Of a DNA stretch of 64,000 nt, positions 16,093-55,741 are shown piece by piece; position 1 is the first letter of the stretch; every line of letters starts with the position of its first letter. The notes beneath the pieces are model-generated. The model was not told where the DNA came from and did not search any database. It saw nothing but the letters and a program-made list of their open reading frames with translations. The translations under genes were made by a program, and so were the position numbers. Origin of the DNA: an uncultured euryarchaeote (lineage in GTDB: Archaea > Thermoplasmatota > Poseidoniia > Poseidoniales > Poseidoniaceae). The stretch covers positions 6,237 through 70,236 of the forward strand of contig CAXFAS010000006.1 in assembly GCA_964001175.1 (NCBI GenBank). Reading direction: 5' to 3'.

Positions 16093-16162
16093 ACCATTTC
16101 ATCATATTTTTTGATGAACAACAAAGGGTAGGCTTTTGATAGTAAGTCTTCCACCGGGGGTC

Positions 16163-19100: not shown

Positions 19101-19696
19101 CAAAATCATCTGCAAAGCGTCAATTAATTTATTCTGAAAAATTGTCTAGCGCAAAAGAAAGTGGATTTGTGAGAAAAATGTCAGTTAGGGTTAGCCCAAT
19201 TCCATACAGGAATCCAATCATGCAATGGCTTATTTTTACACCTCTAACCTTAGGATTATATCCGCTTGTAGCATTATTCAAATGGGGTGAAGAGCTGAAG
19301 AATAATGCTGAAATTGGACCAGGTGGGGCAAAGAATCTATTGTTCTTCATAATACCATTTTTCAATATTTATTGGTTTTTCAAGTTGATTGGAAATGTCA
19401 GAGCGTTGGAATCGAAAACTATGCATCAAACAAAGCTGTCCAGCAGTTCTCCAATTATTTGGTTCATTCTCGGAGTTATAGTATTCCCTGCACTAGGTGC
19501 TGTGGTATTCTTGCTAGGGGCGTTATTTATGATCCCAACAGTTGCGACATTCCCATCTTTTCTTTCAACGCCAATTTTAGCAATATTCTATCTAGTTGTA
19601 ACTTGGATATTCGTTTTCCCGAGTTACAAGATTTGGTCTTTATTACAAAATTCAATGAATGATTCCTGGACTATTTGGTTTGGGAAATCGGCTTAA
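16163..19696 (+). CDS. Multi-repeat surface protein (CARDB/NEW3-like beta-sandwich repeats) fused to a C-terminal polytopic DUF4234-like membrane domain
   Basis: Track ORF begins at TTG 16136. The ATG at 16163 gives a classic signal peptide (MDPRGKPQKSTHRGAIFLIWLMLFSVLPLLAPNVAAA). Repeated xTVxNTG(N/S)xxD...GWS modules. The C-terminal ~220 aa carry several TM helices and the motif NPIMQWLIFTPLTLGLYPLVALFKWGEEL. Confidence 0.6.
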   Translation: MDPRGKPQKSTHRGAIFLIWLMLFSVLPLLAPNVAAAPSINLNVSPNSMEVNPGESGEYTVVIYNTGSDPVSVNLQASNEPGEDCNGYTTTILQIPGQIEAGSSEETTMNVTLAQNVEPESTCDTTVTATIVLSTGTPDPAAPEPSTETVSTTAGDGSGSALFGVDLYFDNIEERNSQQKSLGAGSDTVTYYITVENTGQTNQSIDLVLEEVTDSGCSNPQDLTVTLSETNVALDVEETEQVTVEVEVPDGQQANDYCWELTGTVSGSNPAQNATDTVDFELEVPVLKECSMSLSKTNLNLNPGDVGTLTATLTNEGNSDWSVGMSITGDPGVGSNKWVSFDGPSSGLLPYDDGDGTKSFDLEVEPDDSRSAGSETQITVQAKDGNSLKCVKQFTVILGQSYGASLSLQTSSLGPIEPGENRTSSLTVTNTGNGEDTLRITVSSPPSGWSISLDQSSVTVGSKHGSSKSESVDFIVSVPEDALATESIELTFSVLPNGGGQAYQTKILTVTVKETHGMEVERGQNQTGRSNTILLFPITVENLGNNEDNFRFYTKRNSENWENWYTDEEGNQQTEFTIDARETAVITLNVRVKVGTENWEFTDIDVEITNLGDSNSADDNSDGLPDNKRLEKFRAVRSDVNYSMDIRFGDGDFDGISIDNRVGTLVLPPEGEAMFDLWIENTGDENYDYAVFEINGLEGIATRELMLDGEIVDIDEKFKIKRGYGLWNSTTNSFQLDDEGNLIHSYSENGINAEKEKIGKTELQAMKYKKQFQLIIEVNPGAVTGDSGILEIIVTSESNSADRTGYTSLSLEVQTIYDIQFSSDVDLHYTLEYPDKKTILVDAINQGNVRTQFNVLTPEGLRGWSVSLDYANGSCSSNSDGLTCWLDVGESIGLVVDVRPSYEAEVKDNFSFTLSVEPVETGVIDRENIEFSVLGEPYAGAFGLGIQQEHIKSGMYLIIILIFLGVIYQGAKPTLRDMNAKSSAKRQLIYSEKLSSAKESGFVRKMSVRVSPIPYRNPIMQWLIFTPLTLGLYPLVALFKWGEELKNNAEIGPGGAKNLLFFIIPFFNIYWFFKLIGNVRALESKTMHQTKLSSSSPIIWFILGVIVFPALGAVVFLLGALFMIPTVATFPSFLSTPILAIFYLVVTWIFVFPSYKIWSLLQNSMNDSWTIWFGKSA

Positions 19697-39705: not shown

Positions 39706-40902
39706 TTATGCAAGAGATTCATCACATGCATAACGGCGAGAACAATTTTGACATTTGCCTTTTCTTTGATGATTCCTTTTCGCTCCACCTTCAATCATTA
39801 ATCTTTGAATCTCTTGAATCGATTTGTTCAAAAGTTGTTTTGCTTCTTCATCCCATTTTATCTGATGAATATCTTCATTGCCATATCTAAGAATTCCATA
39901 AGGAGTATTTCGCTTTGTATTTATTTCTACAAGCTGAAGATATGCTAATAATTGCATCTTATGTGAAGTATGAGGTCTTTTAGGAACACGCCCAGTTTTT
40001 TGCTCTACGGGTATGAATTCTCCATCAATAACTACGATTTGATCTGGCCTGCCCCTAAGTCCAGAGTTTTCATCAATGAGAAGACCGGAACTCTCCTCAT
40101 CATCCGAATATGCTATCTCAGTATCTTTTTCTAAACCAGTATGTTTCCTTGCTAGTTCAGCAGAATTTTCAGTAAGAAGTACTCTTTGAAGTTGCCATGA
40201 TGCAGCTAGAGTCCATAACATTGCTAAAGTAAATAGAATAAATCCTGCTTGAGTTCTATTTTCAGCACCAACTAAAGCAATTGAATGGATTCCAAGTAGA
40301 ATAATACTGAATAGTAATCCGGTTTCAAATTTACCTGCTTCAAACCATCCTCCTTTGAAATCTAGAGATTCCCATTCAGACTCTAGAATTTGACTTTCTC
40401 TTCTCAGTCGGTTCTTTTTTTCTCTAATTGTTTCTTCAAACCCGAGCCAGTTACGCCATGGAACTGAAATTGCTATTATAGCAAAAATTAGCAAACTGAC
40501 ACTCCACATAGCAAGATATCTTGCTAAATCTACCGGTGAGAAAACAATATCATCAATAATAATGAATGCTATAGAATCTATTGAAAGTGCAATAATTACC
40601 GTAAACCACCATGTCCAGATTACTAGATGACGCTTAAATTCTGATTGTTTTTCTTGAAATTGAATAACTTGCTCATGAATTTCAGCATGTTTCTGTTTTC
40701 CGAGTTTTATCGCCTCTCCTTGGCCAGAATTACCTTCTCTGGCTAGTGACCAAGACATTGGACAATAACTATGCCTTTCTATATCGCTGGCGCTAATTCT
40801 AAGCGGGTTGTTATTTGAATCTCTCCAAAACCCATCTTTGCATAATTTTGCGTCAAAAAGGGTGTTTGAGCGGGACATCTGATTACTTCCAGTCTCCGCC
40901 AT
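39706..40902 (-). CDS. Cas4/RecB-like PD-(D/E)XK nuclease with Fe-S cysteines, interrupted by four predicted TM helices
   Basis: N-terminal SDIERHSYCPMSW and KLGKQKHAEIH. C-terminal RGRPDQIVVIDGEFIPVEQKTG (D...ExK), HKMQLLAYLQL (QxxxY) and CQNCSRRYAC (Cx2Cx5C). Four hydrophobic helices lie between them (for example VIWTWWFTVIIALSIDSIAFIII and YLAMWSVSLLIFAIIAISV). Confidence 0.6.
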   Translation of the reverse strand: MAETGSNQMSRSNTLFDAKLCKDGFWRDSNNNPLRISASDIERHSYCPMSWSLAREGNSGQGEAIKLGKQKHAEIHEQVIQFQEKQSEFKRHLVIWTWWFTVIIALSIDSIAFIIIDDIVFSPVDLARYLAMWSVSLLIFAIIAISVPWRNWLGFEETIREKKNRLRRESQILESEWESLDFKGGWFEAGKFETGLLFSIILLGIHSIALVGAENRTQAGFILFTLAMLWTLAASWQLQRVLLTENSAELARKHTGLEKDTEIAYSDDEESSGLLIDENSGLRGRPDQIVVIDGEFIPVEQKTGRVPKRPHTSHKMQLLAYLQLVEINTKRNTPYGILRYGNEDIHQIKWDEEAKQLLNKSIQEIQRLMIEGGAKRNHQRKGKCQNCSRRYACDESLA

Positions 40903-41674: not shown

Positions 41675-44503
41675 GTGACTTTTAGTGCCCTGCTTATGGG
41701 AACTGGAGACGATAGTTACATCGACTATGGTAAGTATCAAGCCTCCCTTGAAGATTTGAGTTTTAGAAATAGAAGTATCCTACTTTGGTTTAGTTTTGGG
41801 ATAATTTGGTTATTTTTAAATATCTACGTATTCAATATTCTTTGGTTTTGGGAAGAATTCTATTTTGCAATTTCAGAGGCAGGATGGCAAGTTGTCACTG
41901 AGAATTCCGACGGCACTCAGTGTGTAGTTACTGAATATGAATCATGTGAACGTCTTGTAGGTGCAGGCGGGGTGTGGTGGTCATTACTAGGTAGTTTGAC
42001 GACCGGAATTGCGGTTGGGCCATTAGTCTTCTCTGCTTTGATATTATCATACCGAAATAAGGATGTAACGAAAAAGTGGAAAGAAGAAACATGGGGATTA
42101 TTATTTCTAATCAATCCTTCAATTATTTGGGCTTTATTATTCCTAATATGTTTGCCATATGCATGGACATTATTACCATGGGGTGAATGGTCTACAAATT
42201 GGTGGAAAATTTTTCCCTTTGGATTCGGATTGATTTGGTTGGGCGGACTTCCACCGATTTTGGTTATTAGTAATTTTTTCAAGAAACTTTTCAACCGAGA
42301 ATATAACTCAGACATAACAGTGGAAGCGGGGATTATGCCTGGTGAAGATAGTGAAGAAGGTCAAATGCCAACACAACCAACAGCTTCAGAGGTTGCTAAT
42401 TCAGTAGATGCGAGGTCGTCATATATTGAGGCTGGAATACCCCCAGAACCATCGTTAGGAGGCAGTGCAATATTTGTCGCAATTTTGGCTGCACTCATGA
42501 TAATTCCTGGAATAGTATTGCTAATAATTGGTGGCGTAATGGCAGAAGAGTCCATTGAAGGGGAAGGGAGTTCTAGTTATACTCTAGAGATCATTGATGA
42601 AGACAGTTCAGGTGACCTAGGATTCATCATATTCATTCAAGCAACGCCTGGTGATTTCAACGGAAATGGAATGCATGATTATTGTGAAAATATAATCGTT
42701 AATGCTAATCATTCGGGAGCCTGGATGAGTGACCCATGGACAGGATGGTCCTCATATAATGAGCCGGATGAAACAAGGCAAGTATTCGAACTTGAAATTT
42801 CTCATAGGGGTAGTGGTTGCGATACACAACACTGGCCGAAAGAAAAGTGGGTAAACGATATTCAATTGGTAAAAATTGGAAGAGCATGTTATGGTTGTAT
42901 GGCAGGGAACACAACAATCACTGCAGAATATACACCTGAAACTGAACCAAAACCAGTCGGGATGTGGATACAAGATGGCGAAAAAATCAAAGAATCTACT
43001 ACTTTGACAATTATTGGAGCTGTTCTGACTGGAATTGGTGGATTGTCACTCACGATAATAATTATAGTAATAATTTCTAAATCCAAAGCAGCAGCGATGC
43101 AAGACTCTGAAGGTCAAAAAGAGCCAATTGAGATTATTGAATCGAAACCAGGTCAACCGGTACGCTTCAGAATCAATGACCCTCCGAATGGGAGGGATGC
43201 ATGGGTAGGCATCTATCCTCCTAGCGCTGGTGATCAAGACCACGGTGATAGATGGAGTTGGCTCAGAGATATTGATGTGAATAACGCCACATTACCGGGA
43301 CAACCTGCCGGCGAGTGGAGCATTCGGGTCTTCAAGGACGGCGGATACAAACTCCAGCATCGCGTGGATTTCGAGATTTCTAGTAGCCCCCAACACCCCG
43401 CTAGACCAACCTCATCTGAAGGCATAGTCGGAGGAAATGCAACAATCACAACCTCCAAATCCACATACACGATTGATGAGGGTATCGATTTCTCTTTCGC
43501 CGCACCCAAACTACCCAATGACGCTTGGATAGGAATCGTACCCGTAGCGATACCTCATGGCGATGAAGCAGTTAACGATAGCCACGATACCAGTTATGAG
43601 TATCTTGGAGGCAGGACCAAGGGGGACATCATCCTGCCTAACCCTGGATTGGGAACGTGGACTCTAAGGCTTCATAATACGGACAACAATGGTCGAGAGC
43701 TTACACACGTCGTCTTTGAGGTTGTTTCATCTCCTGCTAGACAGCAAGAATCCATTGAAATTTTACAAGCAGTAGTCGGCAAACCAGTGCGTTTCAAAAT
43801 CAACAATCGTCCTAGCGGTAACGAAGCTTGGTTTGGTTTGTATCCTGTGCAAGCGACTGACCACGAGCATGGAGAACAACACCAAAACTGGATGTATTTC
43901 CGAGACGTAGGTCAAAATGAACTCTCTCTTCCAGCCAAATCTGCAGGCAGATGGAGCATTAGAGTCTTTTCAGATGGTGGATTTAACATGATTAAGCGAT
44001 TAGATTTTGATATTACCGGGACTCATGGCAATGTCGCTCAATTACACCCCTCCGATGGGCGCTACGAATTAGCGCCAGATGAGTTGTCTTGGAATGAGCA
44101 CAATGACCGTGCTCTAGCGATGGGAGGCCACCTTGTTTCGATTACCACCGCAGAGGAAAACGAACTGGTCGCACGAATCGCTGGTAAAAGAACCGTATGG
44201 ATTGGTGGAATGAGGAAAGGCTCGGGCAATGGCCCTGGTGCTGACCACTGGTATTGGTGTGACGGGCAACCTTGGATATATGCGAACTGGGCTCCAGGCG
44301 AGCCGAACAACTACGGAGGTAACGAGAACAGAATACACCTATTCGGACATAACAAATTGTGGAACGATGTCGGTGAGGATTGGAGAGGCCCCGCAGTATA
44401 TCAATTGCCAAAGGAAAAATCAATACAGTCGGCCAAGAAAATACAGTCAGCATTAAAACAGTCTACTAGAGAAAAGAAAGATAACTTTTGGGATTCAGCA
44501 TGA
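41675..44503 (+). CDS. Polytopic membrane protein with a Cys-containing extracytoplasmic loop domain, three ~95-aa repeats and a C-terminal C-type lectin-like domain
   Basis: About six TM helices. R1 and R3 share clear residue similarity by eye (PVRFRINDPPNGRDAWVGIYP... versus PVRFKINNRPSGNEAWFGLYP...), with a divergent middle copy. The C-terminal CTLD pattern is GGHLVSITTAEENELV...VWIGG...WYWCDGQPWIYANWAPGEPNN...KLWNDV. GTG start; alternative ATG at 41696. Confidence 0.65.
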   Translation: MTFSALLMGTGDDSYIDYGKYQASLEDLSFRNRSILLWFSFGIIWLFLNIYVFNILWFWEEFYFAISEAGWQVVTENSDGTQCVVTEYESCERLVGAGGVWWSLLGSLTTGIAVGPLVFSALILSYRNKDVTKKWKEETWGLLFLINPSIIWALLFLICLPYAWTLLPWGEWSTNWWKIFPFGFGLIWLGGLPPILVISNFFKKLFNREYNSDITVEAGIMPGEDSEEGQMPTQPTASEVANSVDARSSYIEAGIPPEPSLGGSAIFVAILAALMIIPGIVLLIIGGVMAEESIEGEGSSSYTLEIIDEDSSGDLGFIIFIQATPGDFNGNGMHDYCENIIVNANHSGAWMSDPWTGWSSYNEPDETRQVFELEISHRGSGCDTQHWPKEKWVNDIQLVKIGRACYGCMAGNTTITAEYTPETEPKPVGMWIQDGEKIKESTTLTIIGAVLTGIGGLSLTIIIIVIISKSKAAAMQDSEGQKEPIEIIESKPGQPVRFRINDPPNGRDAWVGIYPPSAGDQDHGDRWSWLRDIDVNNATLPGQPAGEWSIRVFKDGGYKLQHRVDFEISSSPQHPARPTSSEGIVGGNATITTSKSTYTIDEGIDFSFAAPKLPNDAWIGIVPVAIPHGDEAVNDSHDTSYEYLGGRTKGDIILPNPGLGTWTLRLHNTDNNGRELTHVVFEVVSSPARQQESIEILQAVVGKPVRFKINNRPSGNEAWFGLYPVQATDHEHGEQHQNWMYFRDVGQNELSLPAKSAGRWSIRVFSDGGFNMIKRLDFDITGTHGNVAQLHPSDGRYELAPDELSWNEHNDRALAMGGHLVSITTAEENELVARIAGKRTVWIGGMRKGSGNGPGADHWYWCDGQPWIYANWAPGEPNNYGGNENRIHLFGHNKLWNDVGEDWRGPAVYQLPKEKSIQSAKKIQSALKQSTREKKDNFWDSA

Positions 44504-46493: not shown

Positions 46494-47612
46494 TTACTCA
46501 TTAAGATTTGATTCTAACATCTCTGCAACTCTACGCATTCTTCTGAGAACTCTATCCAATTGGTCTTTTACTCTACGAATATTTTGACTTGAATCTTCAC
46601 CATGTAATCTATGGCCTAAAGGAAGTCTTCCCCCAAGAAGATTCAATAGCAGCATTTGCTGTTTTGGTTCAATTCCTTTCATCTCTGATTCAACTTCTTC
46701 GATAGTTAATTTTCCTTTTTTCAATTTCATTAAGATAGATGACTGTTTCTTGGAATTTAAGATTCTTTGAAATCCACCTTTTTTCAGCATCCAATCTTCT
46801 CCTCTGCGTTGATGTTGTGTTGTCATTGCAGTCCAAAGTGCGATAGCCAATCTATCAGTTCTTGGAATTCTTTCTACCATAGAACTAGCTCGAAATCGTT
46901 CCATTATTCTACCAATTCTAGGTTTTTGTTCACCTATTAGTTCTGCAGCCTCATCCAAAGATAGCGGTGCATCACGGGACAATAATAGTTCGAATAATCG
47001 AGCAGAAGCCGAATCAGCATTAATTTCTTTACCGGGTCTTTCTCCAAGTAGTCCAAAATCCCCCATCCATTGTGAAAGTATACTAGAGGGGCTATCGTTG
47101 ATTAGTGGACGGTGATCAACAATTCCCAAAGAGAGAAGCGGTGTATCATTTTCTGGTAATTCTAGTATGAGTCTAGGATTTTCTCTTTTCCACATTTTTT
47201 CAATTAAGTCCAGTCTCTGAGCAACTATTGTTTTACATTGTAGAGAAAATAATTCTATCGCCTTAGTAATGGTGCCACCTCGAAGATAGTATCTTCGCCA
47301 TCCTTTGCCTTCATTTGTATATCCGATAATCCCTGCTTGTACTAATCTAGTAAGATGGTGATTCAGCGAGGCAGGAGTTAACGCTAATTCATCAGCTAGC
47401 ATCTGCGCATCCCATCCAATTTCTGGTTGAGCAAAAATATAATCTCTGAGAAGACGATGGACAGGGTTTGCTTTACCTCCATCGGCCATTTCTTCACCGC
47501 GCTTTCTAACAAGACACAATGAATCAGTAAACCATGAAACTAGACTATCTAAATCTCTATCACTGGTAGGTAAGGCTACCTCTTGAATTCGAACACTGAA
47601 CATCTTGCTCAA
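46494..47612 (-). CDS. Winged-helix (ArsR-like) DNA-binding protein
   Basis: MLADELALTPASLNHHLTRLVQAGIIGY is an HTH pattern. The rest is uncharacterised. Confidence 0.5.
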   Translation of the reverse strand: MSKMFSVRIQEVALPTSDRDLDSLVSWFTDSLCLVRKRGEEMADGGKANPVHRLLRDYIFAQPEIGWDAQMLADELALTPASLNHHLTRLVQAGIIGYTNEGKGWRRYYLRGGTITKAIELFSLQCKTIVAQRLDLIEKMWKRENPRLILELPENDTPLLSLGIVDHRPLINDSPSSILSQWMGDFGLLGERPGKEINADSASARLFELLLSRDAPLSLDEAAELIGEQKPRIGRIMERFRASSMVERIPRTDRLAIALWTAMTTQHQRRGEDWMLKKGGFQRILNSKKQSSILMKLKKGKLTIEEVESEMKGIEPKQQMLLLNLLGGRLPLGHRLHGEDSSQNIRRVKDQLDRVLRRMRRVAEMLESNLNE

Positions 47613-47687
47613 ATGGGAAAAAATGGCGAAGGTCTTTGAATACTGTGCATTAATTGGCTCTCAAGAGGCGTAAATTATAGTTAAATT

Positions 47688-48350
47688 TCACCTTCGCTCG
47701 TCTTCCCAATCATAATCTACGCCATGTGTTCCATGCCATTGAATGTCCATATCGATATGAGGCATTAATTCTATTCTATCTTCTCTTAATATGCCTCTTC
47801 GCCTAAGTACTTTGATGGCAGAGTGAACGGTAGCTCTACTCCTACCAATTCTTCTAGCAAGGTCTGATTGAGAACGAGGTATTCCTTCTTTGACAATATC
47901 TTCAATTATTAATCTTTGAACTAATGAAAGTCCAATTGGAAGAGATCTAGCAGCCCTTTGCTCATTAACAGAAATACCTTTTAGAACTTCTATTTGACTT
48001 GGTGCACCTGCAAAATAACATGTTCTTCCGTTGACATGCATTACTGTAACGCTTCTTCTAGATTGCAATACATCTAGGTGGTGCCTTAGAGTTCCATTAG
48101 CAGCATTTAGTGTTGATTGCAATTCACGATAACAAAGGCCAGGATGTTTTTCCAGTGTTGTCAAAACTCGCCTTCTTAGAGGGTGGTCGTTATTTCTTGA
48201 TTTTGAGGACACTCCTTGCCATGCGAGAGCACCTACAGCACTTGCAGCAGCGGCCATCGTTCCTGCAACTCCAGCAATTCCTCCAGCAGCACCAGCAATT
48301 CCAGCAGCTAGCCAAGGTCTCTGACGTACCCATTGTGCTAACAATGCCAT
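47688..48350 (-). CDS. Winged-helix protein with an N-terminal Gly/Ala-zipper hydrophobic segment and two wHTH modules
   Basis: N-terminus AAGIAGAAGGIAGVAGTMAAAASAVGALA. HTH patterns CYRELQSTLNAANGTLRHHLDVLQ and QSDLARRIGRSRATVHSAIKVLRRRGIL. Confidence 0.5.
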   Translation of the reverse strand: MALLAQWVRQRPWLAAGIAGAAGGIAGVAGTMAAAASAVGALAWQGVSSKSRNNDHPLRRRVLTTLEKHPGLCYRELQSTLNAANGTLRHHLDVLQSRRSVTVMHVNGRTCYFAGAPSQIEVLKGISVNEQRAARSLPIGLSLVQRLIIEDIVKEGIPRSQSDLARRIGRSRATVHSAIKVLRRRGILREDRIELMPHIDMDIQWHGTHGVDYDWEDERR

Positions 48351-48413
48351 AGGCTCGGGTTTACCTTCTCCTTTGTTAAAGCATCCCGTATTTGATCAAG
48401 CAAATTTTGATAT

Positions 48414-48872
48414 CTATTTTCCAACTTGTACCGAGCCAGTGTAAATTTTGAGATGAGCAACTAATGGAGAAAGCAATCTTCCACATGTCTTACCATGTTC
48501 ACTAAGGGCATAATTGACTCTAATTGGTGGGCCATCGTCTACATGTCGAATTATCAAACCCTCTTCGGCTAAAAGTCTCAATTTATCGGATAGAGTTCTA
48601 GAAGAGATTCCTTCGAGTAGGTTTTTCATCTCATTAAATCTTCTAGGTCCTGCAATATATAGTGTAGAAAGTATCTCTATAGTCCATCTTGAACCAAAAA
48701 CATGTAGTGCTTCAACTGCGGCTTGTACTTCCCAATTTGTATTATATGGGGATTTATTTGAGTAAGGTGCTAATGTCTCTCTAATCGAGGTGCCTATCGC
48801 TATTGTAGATTCAATATTATCTTGTAAAAAAGAGTATGACTCATGTGAAATTCTTTGAATTGGTTCTGGCAT
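48414..48872 (-). CDS. HxlR-family winged-helix transcriptional regulator
   Basis: GSRWTIEILSTLYIAGPRRFNEMKNLLEGISSRTLSDKLRLLAEEGLI matches the HxlR-type HTH. Confidence 0.75.
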   Translation of the reverse strand: MPEPIQRISHESYSFLQDNIESTIAIGTSIRETLAPYSNKSPYNTNWEVQAAVEALHVFGSRWTIEILSTLYIAGPRRFNEMKNLLEGISSRTLSDKLRLLAEEGLIIRHVDDGPPIRVNYALSEHGKTCGRLLSPLVAHLKIYTGSVQVGK

Positions 48873-49061
48873 TATATCAATTTCCTACGGTTTTGATGCG
48901 ACCGAAAAGCACTTCCTTTTTTACACTTGGTATTTCTCTTGTAATAATTCAGTGCCGAGTTTAAATGAATTTCTTTGGCAATTTTGGTTTACAATGTTAA
49001 TGCGATATTTATAGCCACAGTAGGTGTAATGTTTAACACCTAGATGGTTTGACGAGGAACG

Positions 49062-51761
49062 ATGAGTATGTTAAATAACAGCAAGATGATGCTTGGTGCC
49101 GCTTTGGCACTATTAGTTTTGAGTGCCCCTTTGTCGATGCTTTCGACAGGTGCGGTTGAAGGCGCAGTGGAAGAAAATTTTGAAACATTCCCTGCAGATA
49201 ATGCCTGTGCAAATGATGATTGTACAGAAGCAGAAGAAGATTGGGCAACAAGCACTGGTGAAAGAAGTTACTACGCTTGGAATCTAACCAATCCAGGCGC
49301 TGCAGAACCAGTGTATGAACAGGTAGGTCCTTTTGATTATGATATCACTTACACACGTGAAATCATTGATTTCAATGAGTCTGCTGGAACCCTAACTTAC
49401 AGTGAATCTAAGGTTTACACATGTGCTGAAGACACAAGAACCGCCTGTGATACTGAGGTTACTACAACCAATATTCCATTCCAACCACAAGTTGTTGGAG
49501 CAACAGGACTAGCAATTTCTGGAATCATGGATCTTACTAAGGCCGGATTCGCTGCAGGAGCAATCAACAATGAGATGACTTCATTCAGTGCTGGTAAAGC
49601 AACTGCTGACGGTCTTGCAACCACTTACGGTGGTATCCAAGCTGGAGCAATGACCGGTGGAGCAGCAGTCGATGCAGGAACAGCTTCAACGATGATTGGT
49701 GTTGGTTATTATGACGCTTTTGACGCATTCTTTGCCGCATCCAACATGTCCGGAATGGGCGCCGTAACATACACACAAGCAATCCAAGGACAACAAGCAG
49801 CTTCCGGTGGAGTAACCTTCGCAGGTAACTCATCAATTACCAATATGTCTTACGCATTCGACTCCGCAATGATGCCAACAGGTGAAGATGTTTCACTAAC
49901 TGGAATGGTCGGTGTTATGGTCCTTTCTGGACACTGTAATGCATTCCCAACAGCAACCTATGATGAAGTAATGGCTGACGCAGCAAATGGCTTTGAAAAC
50001 GTTGGAACTATGCAAAGAGCCAGTATCTGGGGATTCACAGTAATGGCAAGTGAATCCATGCCTGATGTTAACGCTACTATTGCCAACGACTGGGCTCTGT
50101 GCTTCGGCGTTGGCGGCACATTCGCTAACACTCATGGTGGCGGTGATGACGGATGGTTTACTGACCAAACTGGTACTGCTATCAATGCATCAACTCGTAT
50201 GATGAATTATCTTGGAGTAGATATTGACAATGCAGTAGCAATGAATCTATTGTTTGGAGGTCAAGGCGATGCAGTTCCAACTGGTCTGTTAGCAACCGAC
50301 GCAGTTGGTAGTGATTCAGCAACAGCATTCGGTGTTGCAACATTCATTGGAATGGACGCTGCAACCGCAATGACCACTTACAGTTTAGATATGGCACAAT
50401 ATGGTGCAATCGCCACATGGGTTGGCGGATGGCTTACCAGTCAATCCGCACTACCAATGGTTCTTCTAGGCGGTTCAGGAACAATAACTGCTGAGGAATT
50501 CGTTAACGTCACTCTTGGTGGACAAGACCCAATTAATGGGGGCTATCTAACTTACAGCCTAAACCTAGGTGGAGCATGGGGTACAGCATTAATGCCTACA
50601 TCACCTCAAGGTACTCCGGTATCTGTTGATGCAGCAACTGCTGGAAACTTGCTATACGGACCACTTGGAATTACCACATCAACTGGAGCTGGTTTATTCC
50701 TATACGGTGAACTATTTGGTGAAACTCCTCCTATTGACCTACAAACAATGTCACCTGGAGCGCCGATGACTTGGGATGAAACTACAGTTTCAGCAATCTA
50801 CGGAATTGACGCAAATGCTGCCGCAGCACTAAGAATTATGCTAAGAGATGTAGTATACGATGACTTTGTACCAGGTTTCCTAGTAGGATTAGGTAGTGAT
50901 GGTCAATACAAGACACAAACTGTAAACGAGTGGCTATATGGTTGGAGAGATCCAGTAAGCGCTTTCGTTGCTGGTGATATAACCAATATGTCTCTAGGTT
51001 GGACTAAACTAGAAACTAACCAAACCTACTACGGTTCTGGCGGTGTTTCAACTGGACCTGCAACAACTTACACAATTTGTACCGGACACAACTCAGACTG
51101 TGACAAAGGAGAGACACTTCTTGAAGATGGCTCCAACGAACTATCTTGGCACAGCACACAAATGATGATGGCTACATTCGGCTTAGTTGGCGTTGAAACT
51201 TTGAATGAAACCACTGGTGGATTCCTAACTGGTGATGGTGACAAGGTTGATGCTGGTGGCTATGCGATAACAGCAGTAACCTGTTCAGGAACTAGTGAAG
51301 TCAAGAATATTCCAGTTGATGATTGTTCTGCATCTGTTGACCCAACAACACGACCAATTACTGCTAAACTAATCAAGTCATTTACTTTAGTAGATGCAAT
51401 TGTCCCTGCTTTACCTGTTTACTTCGGTACTGAAATTAACATGCAAGCAGAGCAACTATCTGGATTGATTATCGCTGGTGATTCAACTTCTACTTTCTAC
51501 CTAGATATGAGAGGCCCATATGATAGAGCAACTGCGCCACAAATGAGCGACTTGCAACCAGTATTCCAAATCGTACAATCCTCTGAGATTGCTGATGATG
51601 ATGCAGAGGATATGGAAAGTTCCATTGTAACCAATCAAAATGGTTTGAGTTACTGGACTAACTTCGATGTTCCTACTGACTACATTGCACTACTATTGTA
51701 CCTTGGTGCAGTTGCATGTCTAGTTCTTGCTGTTATGGCAATGAACAAAGAAGAAGAGTGA
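49062..51761 (+). CDS. CD36/LIMP-2/SR-B-family-like membrane glycoprotein homologue with a ~470-aa Ala/Gly/Thr-rich insertion
   Basis: N- and C-terminal hydrophobic anchors. Three blocks resemble CD36-family signatures as I recall them (YFFNVTNP...EVGPYTY...NI.F.DNGT.S; TV.ELLWGYKD; the PHF...F.DI.P.TG region). They are SYYAWNLTNPGAAEPVYEQVGPFDYDITYTREIIDFNESAGTLTYS...TTNIPFQPQV; TQTVNEWLYGWRDPVSAFV; and LPVYFGTEINMQAE...TFYLDMRGPY...LQPVFQIVQS. Confidence 0.5.
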   Translation: MSMLNNSKMMLGAALALLVLSAPLSMLSTGAVEGAVEENFETFPADNACANDDCTEAEEDWATSTGERSYYAWNLTNPGAAEPVYEQVGPFDYDITYTREIIDFNESAGTLTYSESKVYTCAEDTRTACDTEVTTTNIPFQPQVVGATGLAISGIMDLTKAGFAAGAINNEMTSFSAGKATADGLATTYGGIQAGAMTGGAAVDAGTASTMIGVGYYDAFDAFFAASNMSGMGAVTYTQAIQGQQAASGGVTFAGNSSITNMSYAFDSAMMPTGEDVSLTGMVGVMVLSGHCNAFPTATYDEVMADAANGFENVGTMQRASIWGFTVMASESMPDVNATIANDWALCFGVGGTFANTHGGGDDGWFTDQTGTAINASTRMMNYLGVDIDNAVAMNLLFGGQGDAVPTGLLATDAVGSDSATAFGVATFIGMDAATAMTTYSLDMAQYGAIATWVGGWLTSQSALPMVLLGGSGTITAEEFVNVTLGGQDPINGGYLTYSLNLGGAWGTALMPTSPQGTPVSVDAATAGNLLYGPLGITTSTGAGLFLYGELFGETPPIDLQTMSPGAPMTWDETTVSAIYGIDANAAAALRIMLRDVVYDDFVPGFLVGLGSDGQYKTQTVNEWLYGWRDPVSAFVAGDITNMSLGWTKLETNQTYYGSGGVSTGPATTYTICTGHNSDCDKGETLLEDGSNELSWHSTQMMMATFGLVGVETLNETTGGFLTGDGDKVDAGGYAITAVTCSGTSEVKNIPVDDCSASVDPTTRPITAKLIKSFTLVDAIVPALPVYFGTEINMQAEQLSGLIIAGDSTSTFYLDMRGPYDRATAPQMSDLQPVFQIVQSSEIADDDAEDMESSIVTNQNGLSYWTNFDVPTDYIALLLYLGAVACLVLAVMAMNKEEE

Positions 51762-51793: not shown

Positions 51794-52966
51794 GTGAGAG
51801 CCCTTGGTCTAGCCATGGCCAAGCGAGTAATGCTAGTTAGAGGAGGTGTCCTTGGCCGTAATTCAGGCTTAGGTTCTGCTCATCATAATTTAGCAGATTT
51901 ACTAGGTTCAGGCAGTATTCCAGGGTGGGAAACTGATTCTGTATGTGAGTATGAATTATCCTCAAGAGCATCTCCAATTCTGCGCCTATGGAAACGTTGG
52001 TTTTCTCACCCTAGAGCAGTTAAAAAAGCTATATCTAAGTCTATTTCCAAGGGTTCTTGTGATTTGATTCATATCACCGATCAAGAACAGGCACATCTGA
52101 TTCCTAAAAATTCTAAGTTACCAGTTGTAGTTACAGTCCACGATTTATTTCATTTATTTCCTACAAAAATGACATTGGGTGAACAAGAAATTGATATTGG
52201 TGAACAGAATCCTCCTAGTTATCGTCGTCGTGATATTAAGAAATTGAAAAGAGGTCTTGCACGTGCAGATTTACTCATTTGTGATTCTAACGCAACTTTG
52301 CGAGATTGCCAAAAGCATTTTCCAAATGTTAAATCGATATGTGTCCCTTTAGGAATTGATGTTTCATCTTATTCACCAAATAATCGAACTATTCAGGTAG
52401 AACCAATCAATGATAGATGCAATCTTTTGATTGTAGGTAGTAATGACCCAAGAAAGAGAATGGAATTTATCTGTAAAATATTAGGTTCAATAGAATCATC
52501 AATACTTAATGAATTACAAATTCATCATGTGGGGCTAGGAGAAAGTAATTTTGGACAACCTGCAATTATTGATTTGGCTCTACAAAATAAAGTCAATAAT
52601 TGGACAGGACATGGACCTTCAGTTAGCGAGTCTAAACTTATGCAGTTAAGAGACATCAGTGAATGTCTATTATTTCCTTCAGCGAGCGAAGGCTTTGGTT
52701 ATCCTCCATTAGAGGCATTGGCAAGTGGTTTACCTGTTATGTGTGCTGATTTACCTTCACATAATGAATTGATGCCAGAGGATTACTACTTACCTGCCGA
52801 TGATATGTCTTCTTGGAAAGATTCTATCATTGAAGTATACCAAACTTGGAAGAGTCGTGGCGGTAAGCCTCGACAATTTTCAATCGAGTTAGTTGAGCAT
52901 GCTAAAAAGTTTGATAATACTGTATTCTCCTCAAGGATGGCTGATGCATATAATTCCCTAGGCTGA
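51794..52966 (+). CDS. Family 4 glycosyltransferase
   Basis: C-terminal FPSASEGFGYPPLEALASGLPVMC (EX7E motif) in a GT-B layout. GTG start; alternative ATG at 51815. Confidence 0.75.
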   Translation: MRALGLAMAKRVMLVRGGVLGRNSGLGSAHHNLADLLGSGSIPGWETDSVCEYELSSRASPILRLWKRWFSHPRAVKKAISKSISKGSCDLIHITDQEQAHLIPKNSKLPVVVTVHDLFHLFPTKMTLGEQEIDIGEQNPPSYRRRDIKKLKRGLARADLLICDSNATLRDCQKHFPNVKSICVPLGIDVSSYSPNNRTIQVEPINDRCNLLIVGSNDPRKRMEFICKILGSIESSILNELQIHHVGLGESNFGQPAIIDLALQNKVNNWTGHGPSVSESKLMQLRDISECLLFPSASEGFGYPPLEALASGLPVMCADLPSHNELMPEDYYLPADDMSSWKDSIIEVYQTWKSRGGKPRQFSIELVEHAKKFDNTVFSSRMADAYNSLG

Positions 52967-53005
52967 GGTATAACTCATTTTCTTTCGATAAAGTGGTAGA
53001 CTAAT

Positions 53006-53557
53006 CTACCAAGGGAATTTTACATTCCATAATATACCATCGAGGAATATACATTGTATACTCAGCATTACTGAACCTAGGAGCATGGTTCCTGCTCCTT
53101 CAACTCCATCTTGATATGCAGAGTAAGCAAGCAGTCCAAACATTATATTTCCAATTGAAGCAAGTGTGAGTATACCAATTACCAAAAACGGTGTCCAAGA
53201 ATAGTCATTATTCATATGAAATAGTGTACTTTCAAGCCATAGCATTGATGGTATCATGAACACACAATAAGTTAGCAGTAATCGATTGGCTCCTTTACCA
53301 TCCGATTCCCCCCAAGGCCAACGTAGATTATCGATCACAGAAGCATCAACGCTGTAGAGAATTGTCCACCAATACATTAGAAATCCAATGGCAGCAATAA
53401 ACATCCATGGTACAATGAATTTAGTCCAACTAAGAGGTATTCCGCCCCAAAGTGCTGTAGCATCATCAGATTTAGAAACCCCATAAACATATGATAAAAG
53501 TACTAAAATTCCAACAATTATGACGAATGTTCTAATGAACTGTCGTGTTATTTCCAT
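53006..53557 (-). CDS. Integral membrane protein of unknown function (about 5 TM)
   Basis: Hydrophobic helices throughout. No family recognised. Confidence 0.4.
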   Translation of the reverse strand: MEITRQFIRTFVIIVGILVLLSYVYGVSKSDDATALWGGIPLSWTKFIVPWMFIAAIGFLMYWWTILYSVDASVIDNLRWPWGESDGKGANRLLLTYCVFMIPSMLWLESTLFHMNNDYSWTPFLVIGILTLASIGNIMFGLLAYSAYQDGVEGAGTMLLGSVMLSIQCIFLDGILWNVKFPW

Positions 53558-53626
53558 AAGCCTTCGTCTTTAATTTAATAGATAAAGCGTTGCTCGCTTC
53601 CGTGTGCAATTTTCCGCATTATTCAT

Positions 53627-55741
53627 GTGCGGGCTTCAATTCGGCAGTTTATGCAACCGATTCAAAGTGTAGCGATTGTCGGCGCCGGAAATATGGGCTC
53701 AGGTATAGCTCAAAAATCTGCACAAGAAGAATTTGATGTCCAAATGGTAGATAGAGAGCAACAATGGGTTGAAAGAGGCCAAGGAATAATTTCAGATTTC
53801 TTGTCAGAGGCAGTCGAAAGAAGGATTTTTTCTCCACAACAAGTTGAAGATATTAAAGATCGAATTTCTGGAGTTATTGGAGTTGAAAATACTGCTTCTG
53901 ATACAGACCTAGTTATTGAAGCAGTTTTCGAGGATTTTGATATCAAAACCGCAGTATTCAACACCTTAGACGAAGTTTGTGGACCAGAAACAATTCTTGC
54001 ATCAAACACCTCGTCACTTTCTGTTAATGAATTGGCAGAAGCAACAGGAAGAGCTGACAGGTTTGTTGGGCTGCATTTCTTTTATCACCCAGCAAAAAAT
54101 AGGTTGATTGAAGTAATTCCAGCAAAGTCAACAAGTCAAGAAACTGTTGACAAAGTAGTCCAATACTGTAAGATGTTAGGTAAAGTTGTGATTGTGTGTG
54201 CTGATAGACCTGGATTTGTTGTTAACAGATTCTTTGTACCATGGTTAAATGAAGCCTGTTTATTACTTCAAGAGGGTGTTGCTAGTGCTGCTCAAATAGA
54301 TGCTGCTGCCTGTAAAGCATTCAAAATAGGCCTGGGTCCTTTTGGTTTGATGAATTTAACAGGACCTCCTATCGCTTTACATTCAACCGATTATTTAGCA
54401 GAGCAACTTGAGACTTCAAGATATACCGGTGCTAAGAATCTAAGAGACTTGATTGAATCAAATCAACAATGGGAAATTTCAGATGAAAAAGAATATTCAA
54501 GCGAACAATATGATATGATCTCAAAACGCCTTTATGGTGTAGTATTTGGAGTAGCTTCACAAATTGTTGATGAAGGAGTATGCTCTATGGAAGATGTAGA
54601 CAGAGGGGCTAAAGTTGGTCTTAGATGGGCCAAAGGTCCTTTCGAATTGATGAATAGAATAGGTGTAGGCAATGCCTATCAAATGGCGGAATCATATGCT
54701 GAATTATGTAAACTTTCAGAAGGTAGTAGTTCGTGGGAAGTTCCAGAATTTTTCAAGCAACAAGCGTCTTCAAATCAGCCTTGGGATTTTACTTATGTAG
54801 ATACAAACATCTCTAATGGAATTGCAACTTTAACAATAAATAGACCAGAAGCAATGAATGCTTTGAATGAAACAGTGGTTAACCAACTTACTAAAGCAAT
54901 CGATAAGGTAAATTCTGATGACTCAGTTAATACAATAGTAATAGATGGTGCTGGGAAAGCATTTGTTGCTGGTGCTGATGTGAAATTCTTTGTTGACAAG
55001 ATTAGAGCAGAATCAATCGATGATATCTATGAGTTTACTGCAAATGGTCATAAGATGTTGAATTCAATTGAAAACTCCTCTAAGACTACAGTTGCATTAA
55101 CTACAGGATTAGCATTAGGCGGAGGTCTTGAATTGGCTTTAAGTTGCGATTATAGAATTGGAACTAGAAGAACTCAATTTAGATTCCCTGAAACATCGAT
55201 AGGAATTTATCCAGGTCTGGGTGGTTCACAAAGACCTGCAAAGATTTGTGGTATTCCTGCAGCGAGATGGGCTGTTTTAGCAGGAAATTTCATGACTGCT
55301 GATATTGCTTTTGACTTAGGATTACTGACTCATCTTGTAGAAATTTCAGCCGTAGAGTCGTGTGTATCTAGTTGTTCAAAACTTGGAAAACCAGACAATA
55401 AATATCCAGGCAAGCCTGCAAAACAAGATAGTAAGATTGCAAATTTTGCTGCACAATTTTACAGTGACAAGAATATGGAATCATTACTTCAAGGAAAATG
55501 CCCTGAAGGCTTTGATAGTGAAGATAAATTAATTTCCAGACAATTAAAGAATCTCAAATTCACTGCACCAATTGCTCTTTCTATGGCTAGTGATTTGATC
55601 GATGCCACTGCAAGTAATTCACTTGCTGATGGGTTGGATATGGAATTGTCAAAATTACATGACATATTTGCAACAAATGATGCACTAGAAGGCTTATCTG
55701 CTCTGATAGAAGGACGTCGACCTACGTACAATAATTCTTGA
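53627..55741 (+). CDS. Fused 3-hydroxyacyl-CoA dehydrogenase (N-terminal) / enoyl-CoA hydratase (C-terminal)
   Basis: Rossmann VAIVGAGNMGSGIAQ, NTSSLS, HFFYHPAKNRLIEV and RPGFVVNRF. Then the crotonase block ITINRPEAMNAL...DGAGKAFVAGADVKFF...GGGLELALSCD. I recall the HAD-then-ECH order as the archaeal arrangement. Confidence 0.85.
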   Translation: MRASIRQFMQPIQSVAIVGAGNMGSGIAQKSAQEEFDVQMVDREQQWVERGQGIISDFLSEAVERRIFSPQQVEDIKDRISGVIGVENTASDTDLVIEAVFEDFDIKTAVFNTLDEVCGPETILASNTSSLSVNELAEATGRADRFVGLHFFYHPAKNRLIEVIPAKSTSQETVDKVVQYCKMLGKVVIVCADRPGFVVNRFFVPWLNEACLLLQEGVASAAQIDAAACKAFKIGLGPFGLMNLTGPPIALHSTDYLAEQLETSRYTGAKNLRDLIESNQQWEISDEKEYSSEQYDMISKRLYGVVFGVASQIVDEGVCSMEDVDRGAKVGLRWAKGPFELMNRIGVGNAYQMAESYAELCKLSEGSSSWEVPEFFKQQASSNQPWDFTYVDTNISNGIATLTINRPEAMNALNETVVNQLTKAIDKVNSDDSVNTIVIDGAGKAFVAGADVKFFVDKIRAESIDDIYEFTANGHKMLNSIENSSKTTVALTTGLALGGGLELALSCDYRIGTRRTQFRFPETSIGIYPGLGGSQRPAKICGIPAARWAVLAGNFMTADIAFDLGLLTHLVEISAVESCVSSCSKLGKPDNKYPGKPAKQDSKIANFAAQFYSDKNMESLLQGKCPEGFDSEDKLISRQLKNLKFTAPIALSMASDLIDATASNSLADGLDMELSKLHDIFATNDALEGLSALIEGRRPTYNNS

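What the first reader, a model, noticed from the sequence alone, without database searches (positions are those of the whole stretch)
49062..51761. Archaeal homologue of the eukaryotic CD36/LIMP-2/SR-B scavenger-receptor family with a ~470-aa insertion
The protein has the CD36 topology, with a hydrophobic segment at each end and a large N-glycosylation-sequon-rich ectodomain. Its blocks line up with the family signatures as I recall them from human CD36, SCARB1 and SCARB2:
- SYYAWNLTNPGAAEPVYEQVGPFDYDITYTREIIDFNESAGTLTYS (compare FYFFNVTNPEE...EEVGPYTYRE...NIQFGDNGTTISA), nt about 49263-49400.
- TTNIPFQPQV (compare TLNIPVLTV).
- TQTVNEWLYGWRDPVSAFV (compare HTVDELLWGYKDEILSLI), nt about 50910-50960.
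- LPVYFGTEINMQAE...TFYLDMRGPY...LQPVFQIVQSSEI (compare the PHFYQAD...FVDINPLTG...VFPVMYLNESV region), nt about 51400-51600.

Between the NIP block and the WGY block, metazoan proteins have a few tens of residues, the apical helical bundle that binds ligand. This protein has about 470 Ala/Gly/Thr-rich residues there. To my knowledge the CD36 family is regarded as essentially eukaryotic: lipid, lipoprotein and particle receptors with an internal lipid tunnel. A bona fide archaeal member would bear on both the family's origin and lipid or particle uptake in this organism.
Basis: partly seen in the sequence, partly recalled or inferred. Interest (0 to 1): 0.8.

Follow-up and report, generated by a model that had tools for sequence, protein, structure and literature searches.

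The report
Archaeal CD36-like receptor, giant apex domain
An abundant group of marine planktonic archaea (Marine Group II) carries a real, conserved relative of the animal CD36/LIMP-2 lipid scavenger receptors with a large extra helical domain on top, which bears on where this supposedly eukaryotic family came from and on how these archaea may take up lipids.

Summary
ORF 49062-51761 (+) encodes an 899-aa protein with a hydrophobic helix at each end. It passes the Pfam CD36 gathering cut-off (45.9 vs 26.5 bits), as do 7 of 7 divergent relatives. A family profile hits only LIMP-2/CD36 in PDB. hhalign gives 95.8 % probability for the N-terminal part. The C-terminal part aligns collinearly but weakly (E 3.9e-4). 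An AlphaFold2 model (pLDDT 83.7) retrieves only LIMP-2/CD36 as significant folds (E about 2e-6, TM about 0.4). A roughly 470-residue, confidently modelled, mostly helical domain replaces about 24 LIMP-2 residues just after the NIP motif, at the ligand-sensing apex. It is present in every member, is under purifying selection, and has no Pfam, PDB or viral match. The gene sits on Poseidoniales contigs up to 1.8 Mb, in both MGIIa and MGIIb, so it is not contamination or a chimera. NCBI already labels some copies "CD36 family protein", but I found no paper on them. Lipid or fatty-acid capture at the cell surface is the most likely function, but this is inferred and no operon partner is conserved family-wide. 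The sequon richness is not statistically significant. The internal tunnel could not be tested.

The parts
49062..51761 (+). CDS of the CD36-family protein (899 aa; many relatives start two codons later, at the second ATG)
   Evidence: ORF; Pfam PF01130, 45.9 bits vs cut-off 26.5; identical proteins of 897 aa
49086..49154 (+). N-terminal hydrophobic helix (about residues 9-31), a predicted signal-anchor or TM1
   Evidence: hydropathy; helix in the model; in relatives P0130 and P0132 the Pfam CD36 profile aligns from profile position 2, i.e. from the N-terminal TM. Cleaved versus uncleaved was not tested.
49224..49478 (+). N-terminal part of the CD36 beta-core (residues 55-139), ending in the TTNIP motif
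   Evidence: Pfam best stretch 67-151; hhalign window 27-139 to LIMP-2 28-139, probability 95.8 %; strands 63-75, 85-105, 110-121 and 132-136 at pLDDT 85-91
49479..50897 (+). Apex expansion (residues 140-612): a mostly alpha-helical domain of about 470 aa specific to this family, replacing about 24 residues of LIMP-2 (140-163, the alpha4/alpha5 region)
   Evidence: boundaries; pLDDT mostly 85-94; present at 399-494 aa in 19 of 19 diverse members; dN/dS 0.08-0.31; no Pfam hit; no PDB or BFVD fold match
50898..51596 (+). C-terminal part of the CD36 beta-core (residues 613-845), including the WLYGWRDP block and the long strands 786-797, 802-815 and 831-842
   Evidence: hhalign window 612-858 to LIMP-2 164-432 over 222 columns, E 3.9e-4, probability 36 %; HMMER C-terminal profile hits only LIMP-2, E 0.5-1.7; Foldseek aligns about 300 of about 390 LIMP-2 residues
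51675..51743 (+). C-terminal hydrophobic helix (about residues 872-894, TM2), followed by a short acidic tail
   Evidence: hydropathy; helix 871-895 in the model
49008..49058 (+). Putative expression signals: TTTATA at 49008-49013 and GAGGA at 49054-49058, 3 nt before the ATG. These are read from the sequence and are inference only.
51794..52966 (+). GT4 glycosyltransferase starting 32 nt after the stop codon. It may be co-transcribed and is a candidate to glycosylate the ectodomain. It is context only and is conserved only in the close clade.

Best explanation
This is a genuine chromosomal gene of a Marine Group II archaeon (Candidatus Poseidoniaceae). It encodes a highly divergent member of the CD36/LIMP-2/SR-B family.

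Shown here:
- The protein has a hydrophobic helix at each end.
- Its ectodomain beta-core is homologous to the CD36 domain. It is split after the NIP motif by a conserved, folded, mainly helical domain of about 470 residues. That position is the membrane-distal apex, which senses ligand in animal receptors.
- The family occurs in both Poseidoniales families, always in the long form, and evolves under purifying selection.

Inferred:
- The protein sits in the cytoplasmic membrane with both ends inside the cell and the ectodomain outside.
- The enlarged apex captures a hydrophobic ligand, most likely long-chain fatty acids or other lipids from algal or particulate organic matter.
- The beta-core passes the ligand to the membrane through a CD36-type tunnel, feeding the fatty-acid degradation pathway that all Poseidoniales genera encode.
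- The gene most likely entered the ancestor of Poseidoniales by ancient transfer from a eukaryote, and the apex then expanded.

My confidence is about 0.9 for the homology and architecture and about 0.4-0.5 for the lipid-uptake role. The figure given below is for the whole statement.
For: Homology:
- Pfam PF01130 scores 45.9 bits against a gathering cut-off of 26.5. The seven divergent members tested score 29-70 bits.
- The family profile searched against all PDB sequences hits only CD36-family chains: LIMP-2 at E 1.2e-5 and CD36 at 0.012.
- hhalign against PDB-verified human LIMP-2 plus CD36 gives probability 95.8 %, E 7e-9, for residues 27-139. The C-terminal part gives a collinear 222-column alignment at E 3.9e-4.
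- The AlphaFold2 model has pLDDT 83.7 and pTM 0.74. Its top 13 Foldseek PDB hits are all LIMP-2/SCARB2/CD36, with E from 2e-6 to 1.5e-3, probability 1.0, and about 300 aligned columns.

Topology: hydropathy.

The insert is a real domain:
- pLDDT is 85-94.
- It has its own invariant Gly, Pro, Trp, Arg and Asp residues.
- It is present at 399-494 aa in 19 of 19 members.
- Its dN/dS is 0.08-0.31.

Not an artefact:
- The gene lies on contigs of 1.27-1.83 Mb with conserved synteny.
- 213 relatives were found in GTDB species genomes, and the 80 listed are Poseidoniales-type.
- Named members come from Poseidoniaceae and Thalassarchaeaceae.

Function:
- CD36-family proteins carry lipids through an internal tunnel (established knowledge; PMC10715195).
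- All Poseidoniales genera encode fatty-acid degradation (PMC6461757).
- In this clade a FadB-like enzyme lies two genes downstream. In the two related loci with annotated genes, a fatty-acid desaturase lies about 6-8 kb downstream.
- Eukaryotic SR-Bs longer than 500 aa also carry independent helical apex expansions at the alpha4/alpha5 position (PMC10715195).
Against: - Sequence support for the C-terminal half is weak when taken alone: no Pfam hit, HMMER E 0.5-1.7, and hhalign probability 36 %.
- Foldseek TM-scores normalised to the target are only 0.39-0.42, with rmsd about 7 A.
- The tunnel was not examined.
- The link to fatty-acid genes holds only in the clade at roughly 70 % identity or more. 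No neighbour is shared by more than 22 of 83 loci.
- Animal family members bind many ligand classes, so homology does not fix the ligand.
- There are no expression or biochemical data.
- The direction and date of any transfer are untested, because no phylogeny with eukaryotic sequences could be built here.
Confidence: 0.55

Rival explanations
1. The fold and family are the same, but the cargo is carotenoids, xanthophylls or retinal taken from the environment for the cell's rhodopsins. This would parallel SCARB1, CD36 and NinaD, which mediate carotenoid uptake in animals.
For: - The role of class B scavenger receptors in animal carotenoid uptake is established knowledge and was not tested here.
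- MGII are rhodopsin photoheterotrophs (PMC6461757).
- MGII carry fenestrated ACB rhodopsins of the xanthophyll-antenna type. The pelagic Asgard lineage studied in that paper must obtain retinal and xanthophylls from the environment (PMC12137139).
Against: - The gene is also present in a Guaymas MAG (L053), which I take to be a deep-water source.
- It occurs across both families, whereas five genera have lost proteorhodopsin. Co-variation with rhodopsin genes was not tested.
- There is no carotenoid or rhodopsin gene near the locus.
Confidence: 0.15
2. The protein is a surface recognition or adhesion receptor that does not transport lipid. The large apex domain binds particles, algal surfaces, other cells or an S-layer component, and the CD36 core acts only as a stalk.
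For: - Animal CD36-family members also act as pattern-recognition and adhesion receptors (PMC10715195 abstract).
- The window is rich in large surface proteins: PKD, CARDB, a subtilase and a C-type lectin.
- The most recurrent neighbour is a small two-TM Cys-rich surface protein.
- The apex evolves faster than the core.
Against: The beta-core is the most conserved part (43-44 % identity vs 33-35 %, dN/dS 0.02-0.12). That suggests the core itself has a function and is more than a spacer. No adhesion-type domain was detected in the apex.
Confidence: 0.15
3. The protein is not a true family member. It is an independently evolved or very anciently related prokaryotic lipid-binding beta-barrel, like mycobacterial LmcA, and the motif resemblance to CD36 is coincidental.
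For: - LmcA, LppX and LprG appear as weaker structural neighbours (E 0.06-2).
- LmcA has a published CD36-like fold with no detectable sequence relationship (PMC8972800).
- The C-terminal sequence signal is weak.
Against: - The Pfam gathering cut-off is passed by all eight family members tested.
- hhalign gives 95.8 % probability.
- Only CD36-family chains are hit, in collinear order on both sides of the insert.
- The two-TM topology is shared with CD36.
Confidence: 0.05
4. The gene is eukaryotic contamination, or a chimeric assembly joining two CD36 halves to an unrelated Ala/Gly/Thr-rich sequence.
For: None was found. Three related contigs sit in MAGs labelled as alphaproteobacteria.
Against: - The same architecture occurs in hundreds of independent assemblies (538 hits; 213 genome loci).
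- It lies on contigs of 1.27 and 1.83 Mb with archaeal neighbours.
- The reading frame is continuous.
- The insert is under purifying selection.
- GC is uniform across the window.
- The 'alphaproteobacterial' contigs have 45-49 % GC, within the range of the other loci, and look mis-binned.
Confidence: 0.01

Closest known systems
Eukaryotic class B scavenger receptors (CD36/SCARB3, LIMP-2/SCARB2, SR-B1; Pfam PF01130)
   Same: Both have the hairpin topology with one TM helix at each end. Both have an ectodomain beta-core with the same order of sequence blocks: WNxTNP, GPxxY, NIP, WLxGWxDP, FYLDxRG and PVFxIxxSxxI. These are the only significant sequence and fold matches in PDB.
   Different: - Identity is only about 14 %.
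- About 470 residues replace about 24 at the apex, in place of the compact three-helix bundle.
- The cysteine pairs lie at different positions from the metazoan disulfides.
- The host is an archaeon.
- The ligand and the tunnel are untested.
Eukaryotic SR-B homologues with lineage-specific apex expansions (e.g. Dictyostelium LmpA, Phytophthora and Tetrahymena SR-Bs; Boohar et al. 2023, PMC10715195)
   Same: Both keep a conserved beta-barrel and carry a multi-helical expansion with no known domain homology at the position corresponding to alpha4/alpha5 of the apex.
   Different: Those are eukaryotic, and the authors consider them independent events. Whether the archaeal apex domain is related to any of them could not be tested here, because no eukaryotic sequences or AlphaFold DB were available.
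Mycobacterial LmcA (MSMEG_0317; PDB 7n3v/7shw)
   Same: It is a prokaryotic, membrane-associated, elongated asymmetric beta-barrel with enclosed cavities, and it is structurally similar to LIMP-2/CD36 (PMC8972800). It is also the next-best structural neighbour of the archaeal model.
   Different: LmcA has no PF01130 sequence signal and no helical apex, and it is much smaller. Its match to the archaeal model is weak (E 0.06, about 153 columns) compared with LIMP-2 (E 2e-6, about 300 columns).

Membership tests
CD36/SR-B family (Pfam PF01130) | Match to the curated family profile above its gathering score | tested here: met
   45.9 bits against 26.5. Seven divergent relatives score 29.3-70.5 bits. 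The signal comes from the N-terminal part of the profile (positions about 2-134 of 463).
CD36/SR-B family (Pfam PF01130) | Hairpin topology: N- and C-terminal TM helices flanking one large ectodomain, with short tails | tested here: met
   The only two hydrophobic segments are at residues 9-31 and 872-894, and both are helices in the model. This is a prediction only. Whether the N-terminal segment is cleaved as a signal peptide was not tested.
CD36/SR-B family (Pfam PF01130) | Asymmetric antiparallel beta-barrel core of the LIMP-2/CD36 type | tested here: met
With a model at pLDDT 83.7, the 13 best PDB matches are all LIMP-2/SCARB2/CD36 (E from 2e-6 to 1.5e-3, probability 1.0, 294-346 alignment columns of 316-400 residues). 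Caveat: TM-scores are 0.39-0.42, and this is a predicted structure.
CD36/SR-B family (Pfam PF01130) | Sequence homology of the C-terminal two-thirds of the domain | tested here: inconclusive
   The C-terminal part alone gets no Pfam hit. The HMMER profile hits only LIMP-2, but at E 0.5-1.7. hhalign gives a collinear alignment of 222 columns, E 3.9e-4, probability 36 %.
CD36/SR-B family (Pfam PF01130) | Three-helix bundle (alpha4, alpha5, alpha7) at the membrane-distal apex | tested here: not met
   A helical domain of about 470 residues replaces LIMP-2 residues 140-163. Its first helix (140-193) and last helix (584-609) may correspond to alpha4 and alpha5. Eukaryotic members longer than 500 aa deviate at the same place (PMC10715195), so this feature does not define the whole family.
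CD36/SR-B family (Pfam PF01130) | Continuous internal hydrophobic tunnel or cavity from the apex to the membrane | not testable with these tools
CD36/SR-B family (Pfam PF01130) | Metazoan disulfide pattern in the C-terminal half | tested here: not met
   The archaeal cysteines form other, pairwise co-occurring sets (49/54, 121/129, 292/347, 673/680, 741/755), each present in 7-13 of 19 members. PMC10715195 discusses disulfide-bridge conservation under a Metazoa-specific heading, so I do not treat it as defining for the whole family.
LmcA-like actinobacterial lipoglycan-pathway proteins | Close structural or sequence similarity to LmcA | tested here: not met
   Only a weak partial structural match was found (E 0.06-0.18, about 150 columns). 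There was no sequence hit.

The most novel reading that the evidence does not exclude
The CD36/SR-B family is not purely eukaryotic. The dominant planktonic archaea of the surface ocean have carried it since before the MGIIa/MGIIb split, as a cell-surface import device for hydrophobic nutrients (fatty acids, lipids or algal carotenoids). Its large apex domain, which has no match in PDB, BFVD or Pfam, would act as the ligand catcher. That would provide a first candidate lipid-uptake route for an archaeon. It would also be evidence for an ancient gene exchange between eukaryotes and Poseidoniales, or for a pre-eukaryotic origin of the fold.
Probability: 0.3. Interest if true: 0.8.

Novelty: new variant of a known kind. 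Interest (0 to 1): 0.66.

Why it matters
[quoted passage not shown] A conserved, order-wide archaeal branch changes the taxon sampling needed for any origin scenario. It also offers a prokaryotic member that may be easier to study.

For marine microbiology, Poseidoniales are uncultured, very abundant, and thought to grow on proteins and lipids from particles. All genera encode fatty-acid degradation (PMC6461757), but I am not aware of a described uptake route. This protein is a concrete, testable candidate.

The apex domain of about 470 residues has no detectable relative in Pfam, PDB or BFVD. It parallels the independent apex expansions seen in protist receptors, which makes the family a natural experiment in how ligand specificity evolves.

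Tried and rejected
- NCBIfam scan: no hit.
- tRNA and Rfam scans of the window, to help name the organism: nothing found.
- Single-sequence search against PDB: only E about 0.6 to LIMP-2. Family profiles were needed.
- First AlphaFold2 run, with 49 close homologues: mediocre (pLDDT 65). It was replaced by a run with 42 diverse sequences.
- Building a full-length eukaryotic CD36 profile from the protein collection failed. The collection holds only 39 short exon-like fragments. I therefore used human LIMP-2 and CD36 recalled from memory, after confirming them residue for residue against PDB chains.
- Operon-based functional inference was rejected. The HxlR/GT4/FadB neighbourhood holds only in the clade at roughly 70 % identity or more, and no neighbour is present in more than 22 of 83 loci.
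- Internal duplication of the insert: no convincing signal (best probability 14 %).
- Viral structure library: no match.
- Contamination or chimera: rejected.
- The 'alphaproteobacterial' hosts of three loci were judged to be mis-binning, on GC.
- The third protein-database search was left unused, because no query design would have revealed other prokaryotic CD36 lineages among the top 120 hits.
Full report
**The observation**

The window contains an ORF at 49062..51761 on the + strand, encoding 899 aa, exactly as reported. Kyte-Doolittle analysis finds two hydrophobic segments, at residues 9-31 and 872-894, and none in between. The protein is very acidic, with 102 Asp+Glu against 23 Lys+Arg. 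Ala, Gly and Thr are enriched throughout, not only in the insert.

It has 12 N-X-S/T sequons against 7.1 expected from composition (P about 0.06). 'Sequon-rich' is therefore not a significant property. One sequon, N653-Q-T, is conserved in all 19 diverse members examined.

**Organism and contig integrity**

The window has a uniform GC of about 0.40. It encodes ordinary archaeal chromosomal genes: ribosomal protein S2, complex I subunits, Dus and a GDP-mannose dehydratase. It also encodes many large surface proteins.

The protein has 538 relatives in the 5.8-billion-protein collection. The 120 best are 68-100 % identical and nearly all about 900 aa long, apart from three shorter fragments. All but those three carry a precomputed PF01130 hit. 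Two are named by NCBI 'CD36 family protein [Candidatus Poseidoniaceae archaeon]'.

Relatives lie on contigs of 1.27 and 1.83 Mb with this gene order: Dus, three HTH genes, then the CD36-like gene, GT4, a small membrane protein and a FadB-like gene. A scan of GTDB species genomes found 213 relatives. The 80 listed are Poseidoniales or 'Euryarchaeota' MAGs. Three exceptions are contigs binned with alphaproteobacteria. Their GC is 45-49 %, within the range of the other loci, so they look mis-binned.

Named members of divergent clusters come from both Poseidoniaceae (MGIIa) and Thalassarchaeaceae or Thalassarchaeum (MGIIb). Contamination and chimeric assembly are excluded.

**Is it a CD36-family protein?**

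*Sequence evidence*
- Pfam PF01130 scores 45.9 bits (E 3.8e-12) against a gathering score of 26.5, with the best stretch at residues 67-151 on profile positions 51-134.
- All seven divergent relatives tested also pass, at 29-70 bits, always through the N-terminal third of the profile. For two of them the match starts at profile position 2, which includes the N-terminal TM helix.
- A profile of 19 members (down to 27 % identity) searched against every PDB sequence hits eight sequences, all of them LIMP-2/SCARB2 or CD36. The best E-value is 1.2e-5.
- For an HHpred-style test I needed eukaryotic sequences. The protein collection holds only fragments. I therefore wrote out human LIMP-2 and CD36 from memory and confirmed them residue for residue against chains 4q4f_A and 5lgd_A.
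- hhalign of the archaeal profile against these gives probability 95.8 %, E 7e-9, for window residues 27-139 against LIMP-2 28-139.
- The C-terminal region is weaker. It has no Pfam hit when scanned alone. HMMER gives E 0.5-1.7, but only LIMP-2 chains are hit and they are collinear. hhalign gives E 3.9e-4 at 36 % probability over 222 collinear columns, window 612-858 against LIMP-2 164-432.

*Structure evidence*
- An AlphaFold2 model built on 42 diverse sequences reaches pLDDT 83.7 and pTM 0.74.
- Its 13 best Foldseek matches in PDB are all LIMP-2/SCARB2/CD36, with E from 2e-6 to 1.5e-3, probability 1.0 and roughly 300 aligned columns (294-346). TM-scores are only 0.39-0.42.
- The earlier, poorer model gave the same ranking.

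Taken together, homology to the CD36 domain is well supported. The N-terminal part is supported by sequence and the C-terminal part mainly by fold and collinearity.

**The insert**

The alignments bracket it precisely. TTNIP (residues 135-139) pairs with LIMP-2 TLNIP (135-139), and YKTQTVNEWLYGWRDP (616-631) pairs with FVTHTVDELLWGYKDE (168-183). Residues 140-611/612 therefore stand in for LIMP-2 140-163, the alpha4/alpha5 part of the apical helix bundle.

The insert is not a linker. It is modelled with pLDDT mostly 85-94 as a bundle of helices, including 140-193, 205-226, 336-357 and 584-609. It contains family-invariant Gly, Pro, Arg, Asp and Trp residues. It is present at 399-494 aa in 19 of 19 diverse members. 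It is conserved at 33-35 % identity, against 43-44 % for the core. Its dN/dS is 0.08-0.31, against 0.02-0.12 for the core.

It has no Pfam match, no PDB or viral structural neighbour, and no convincing internal repeat. An exhaustive profile search of 1.84 billion representatives found only 211 proteins. All full-length ones are 843-969 aa long, so no short form of this family was seen.

**Context and function**

In the clade at roughly 70 % identity or more, the gene is flanked by a divergent HxlR-type regulator, a GT4 glycosyltransferase 32 nt downstream, a small membrane protein and a FadB-like beta-oxidation enzyme. In the two related loci with annotated genes, a fatty-acid desaturase lies about 6-8 kb downstream. 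This arrangement disappears in more distant members. No neighbour is shared by more than 22 of 83 loci. Function must therefore be inferred from the family.

CD36-family proteins pass lipids through a tunnel in the beta-core, and ligand is first caught at the apex (PMC10715195). All Poseidoniales genera encode fatty-acid degradation and are thought to use lipids from particles (PMC6461757). The most economical model is a surface lipid or fatty-acid capture and delivery protein with an enlarged ligand-binding apex.

A serious rival is carotenoid or retinal uptake. Animal class B receptors do this (established knowledge). MGII carry xanthophyll-type fenestrated rhodopsins, and the pelagic Asgard lineage in that study must import these pigments (PMC12137139). 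A pure adhesion or recognition role is also possible.

**Comparison with known systems, and novelty**

The closest known family is the eukaryotic SR-B/CD36 family. Within it, the closest analogues are the protist members with independent helical apex expansions at the same alpha4/alpha5 position.

No paper in the searchable library combines CD36 with Poseidoniales, and none of the listed results from the broader searches does so for Marine Group II, Euryarchaeota or Thermoplasmatota. The 2023 family survey searched eukaryotes only. The family assignment is, however, already made automatically in NCBI records. I therefore rate it a new variant of a known kind: a known family found in an unexpected domain of life, with a new apex domain.

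**Origin**

The family occurs in both MGIIa and MGIIb, and no member was seen outside Poseidoniales-type genomes. By contrast, an SR-B is inferred for the last eukaryotic common ancestor. Ancient transfer from a eukaryote into the Poseidoniales ancestor is therefore the most parsimonious reading. This is inference only, because no phylogeny with eukaryotic sequences could be built here.

**Limits**

- TM-scores are modest.
- Topology and glycosylation are predictions.
- There are no expression or biochemical data.
- Other prokaryotic PF01130 lineages were not searched for systematically.

Noticed in passing
window 41675-44503 (+): This 942-aa multi-domain membrane protein ends in a C-type lectin domain (PF00059, E 4.6e-6, above the cut-off), another typically eukaryotic module. 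Its residues about 265-520 form a TM, Cys-rich ('VKIGRACYGC'), TM module. That module is 25-30 % identical to proteins of about 280 aa lying 41-100 bp or about 0.9-1 kb downstream of the CD36-like gene in 20 other loci. It is the most recurrent neighbour (22 of 83 loci) and a possible partner.
   Followed up: partly
window 46494-48872 (-): Three helix-turn-helix regulator genes lie in a row, divergent from the CD36-like gene: HxlR-type (152 aa), HTH_24/HVO_0163-like (220 aa) and a 372-aa weak HTH protein. They are conserved with the gene only in the clade at roughly 70 % identity or more.
   Followed up: partly
window 51794-55741: A GT4 glycosyltransferase starts 32 nt after the CD36-like stop codon. 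It is followed by a 183-aa membrane protein with no Pfam hit on the opposite strand, and then a 704-aa FadB-like fusion of 3-hydroxyacyl-CoA dehydrogenase and enoyl-CoA hydratase. The arrangement is clade-specific.
   Followed up: partly
window 49062-51761 compared with L004, L006 and L008: Synonymous divergence differs several-fold between regions of the same gene pair (L004: N-core 1.12 vs C-core 0.19; L006: 0.18 vs 0.68). L008 has a best protein segment at 99 % identity but only 83 % nucleotide identity over 9.4 kb. This looks like recombination mosaics among MGIIa populations.
   Followed up: no
L017, L026, L028: Contigs carrying the archaeal gene sit in public MAGs labelled Rhodobiaceae, Yoonia and Salipiger. 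Their GC is 45-49 %, within the range of the other MGII loci, so they are probably mis-binned.
   Followed up: partly
L044 and L081 (same MAG, 02um_A1D0714_6.38): One Poseidoniaceae MAG carries two copies, at about 65 % and about 37-40 % identity to the query. The family therefore has at least two paralogous lineages in some genomes.
   Followed up: no
window 6111-10790 (+), 11449-16092 (+), 16136-19696 (+): There is a run of very large predicted surface proteins. One of 1559 aa has no Pfam hit at all. One of 1547 aa is a subtilase with a CARDB domain. One of 1186 aa has Ig-like domains.
   Followed up: no
window 49062-51761, residues 49/54, 121/129, 292/347, 673/680, 741/755: Cysteines appear and disappear across the family in neighbouring pairs, with equal counts per pair for four of the five pairs. 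This suggests five lineage-variable disulfides at positions different from the metazoan CD36 disulfides.
   Followed up: partly
window 50217-50429 vs 50619-50849 (residues about 386-456 vs 520-596): There is a faint internal similarity within the apex domain (hhalign E 0.0019, probability 14 %, 65 columns). It is not significant.
   Followed up: partly
window 39706-40902 (-): A 398-aa Cas4-like / PD-(D/E)XK nuclease gene lies next to ribosomal protein S2, in the same position as in L001. I did not look for a CRISPR array.
   Followed up: no
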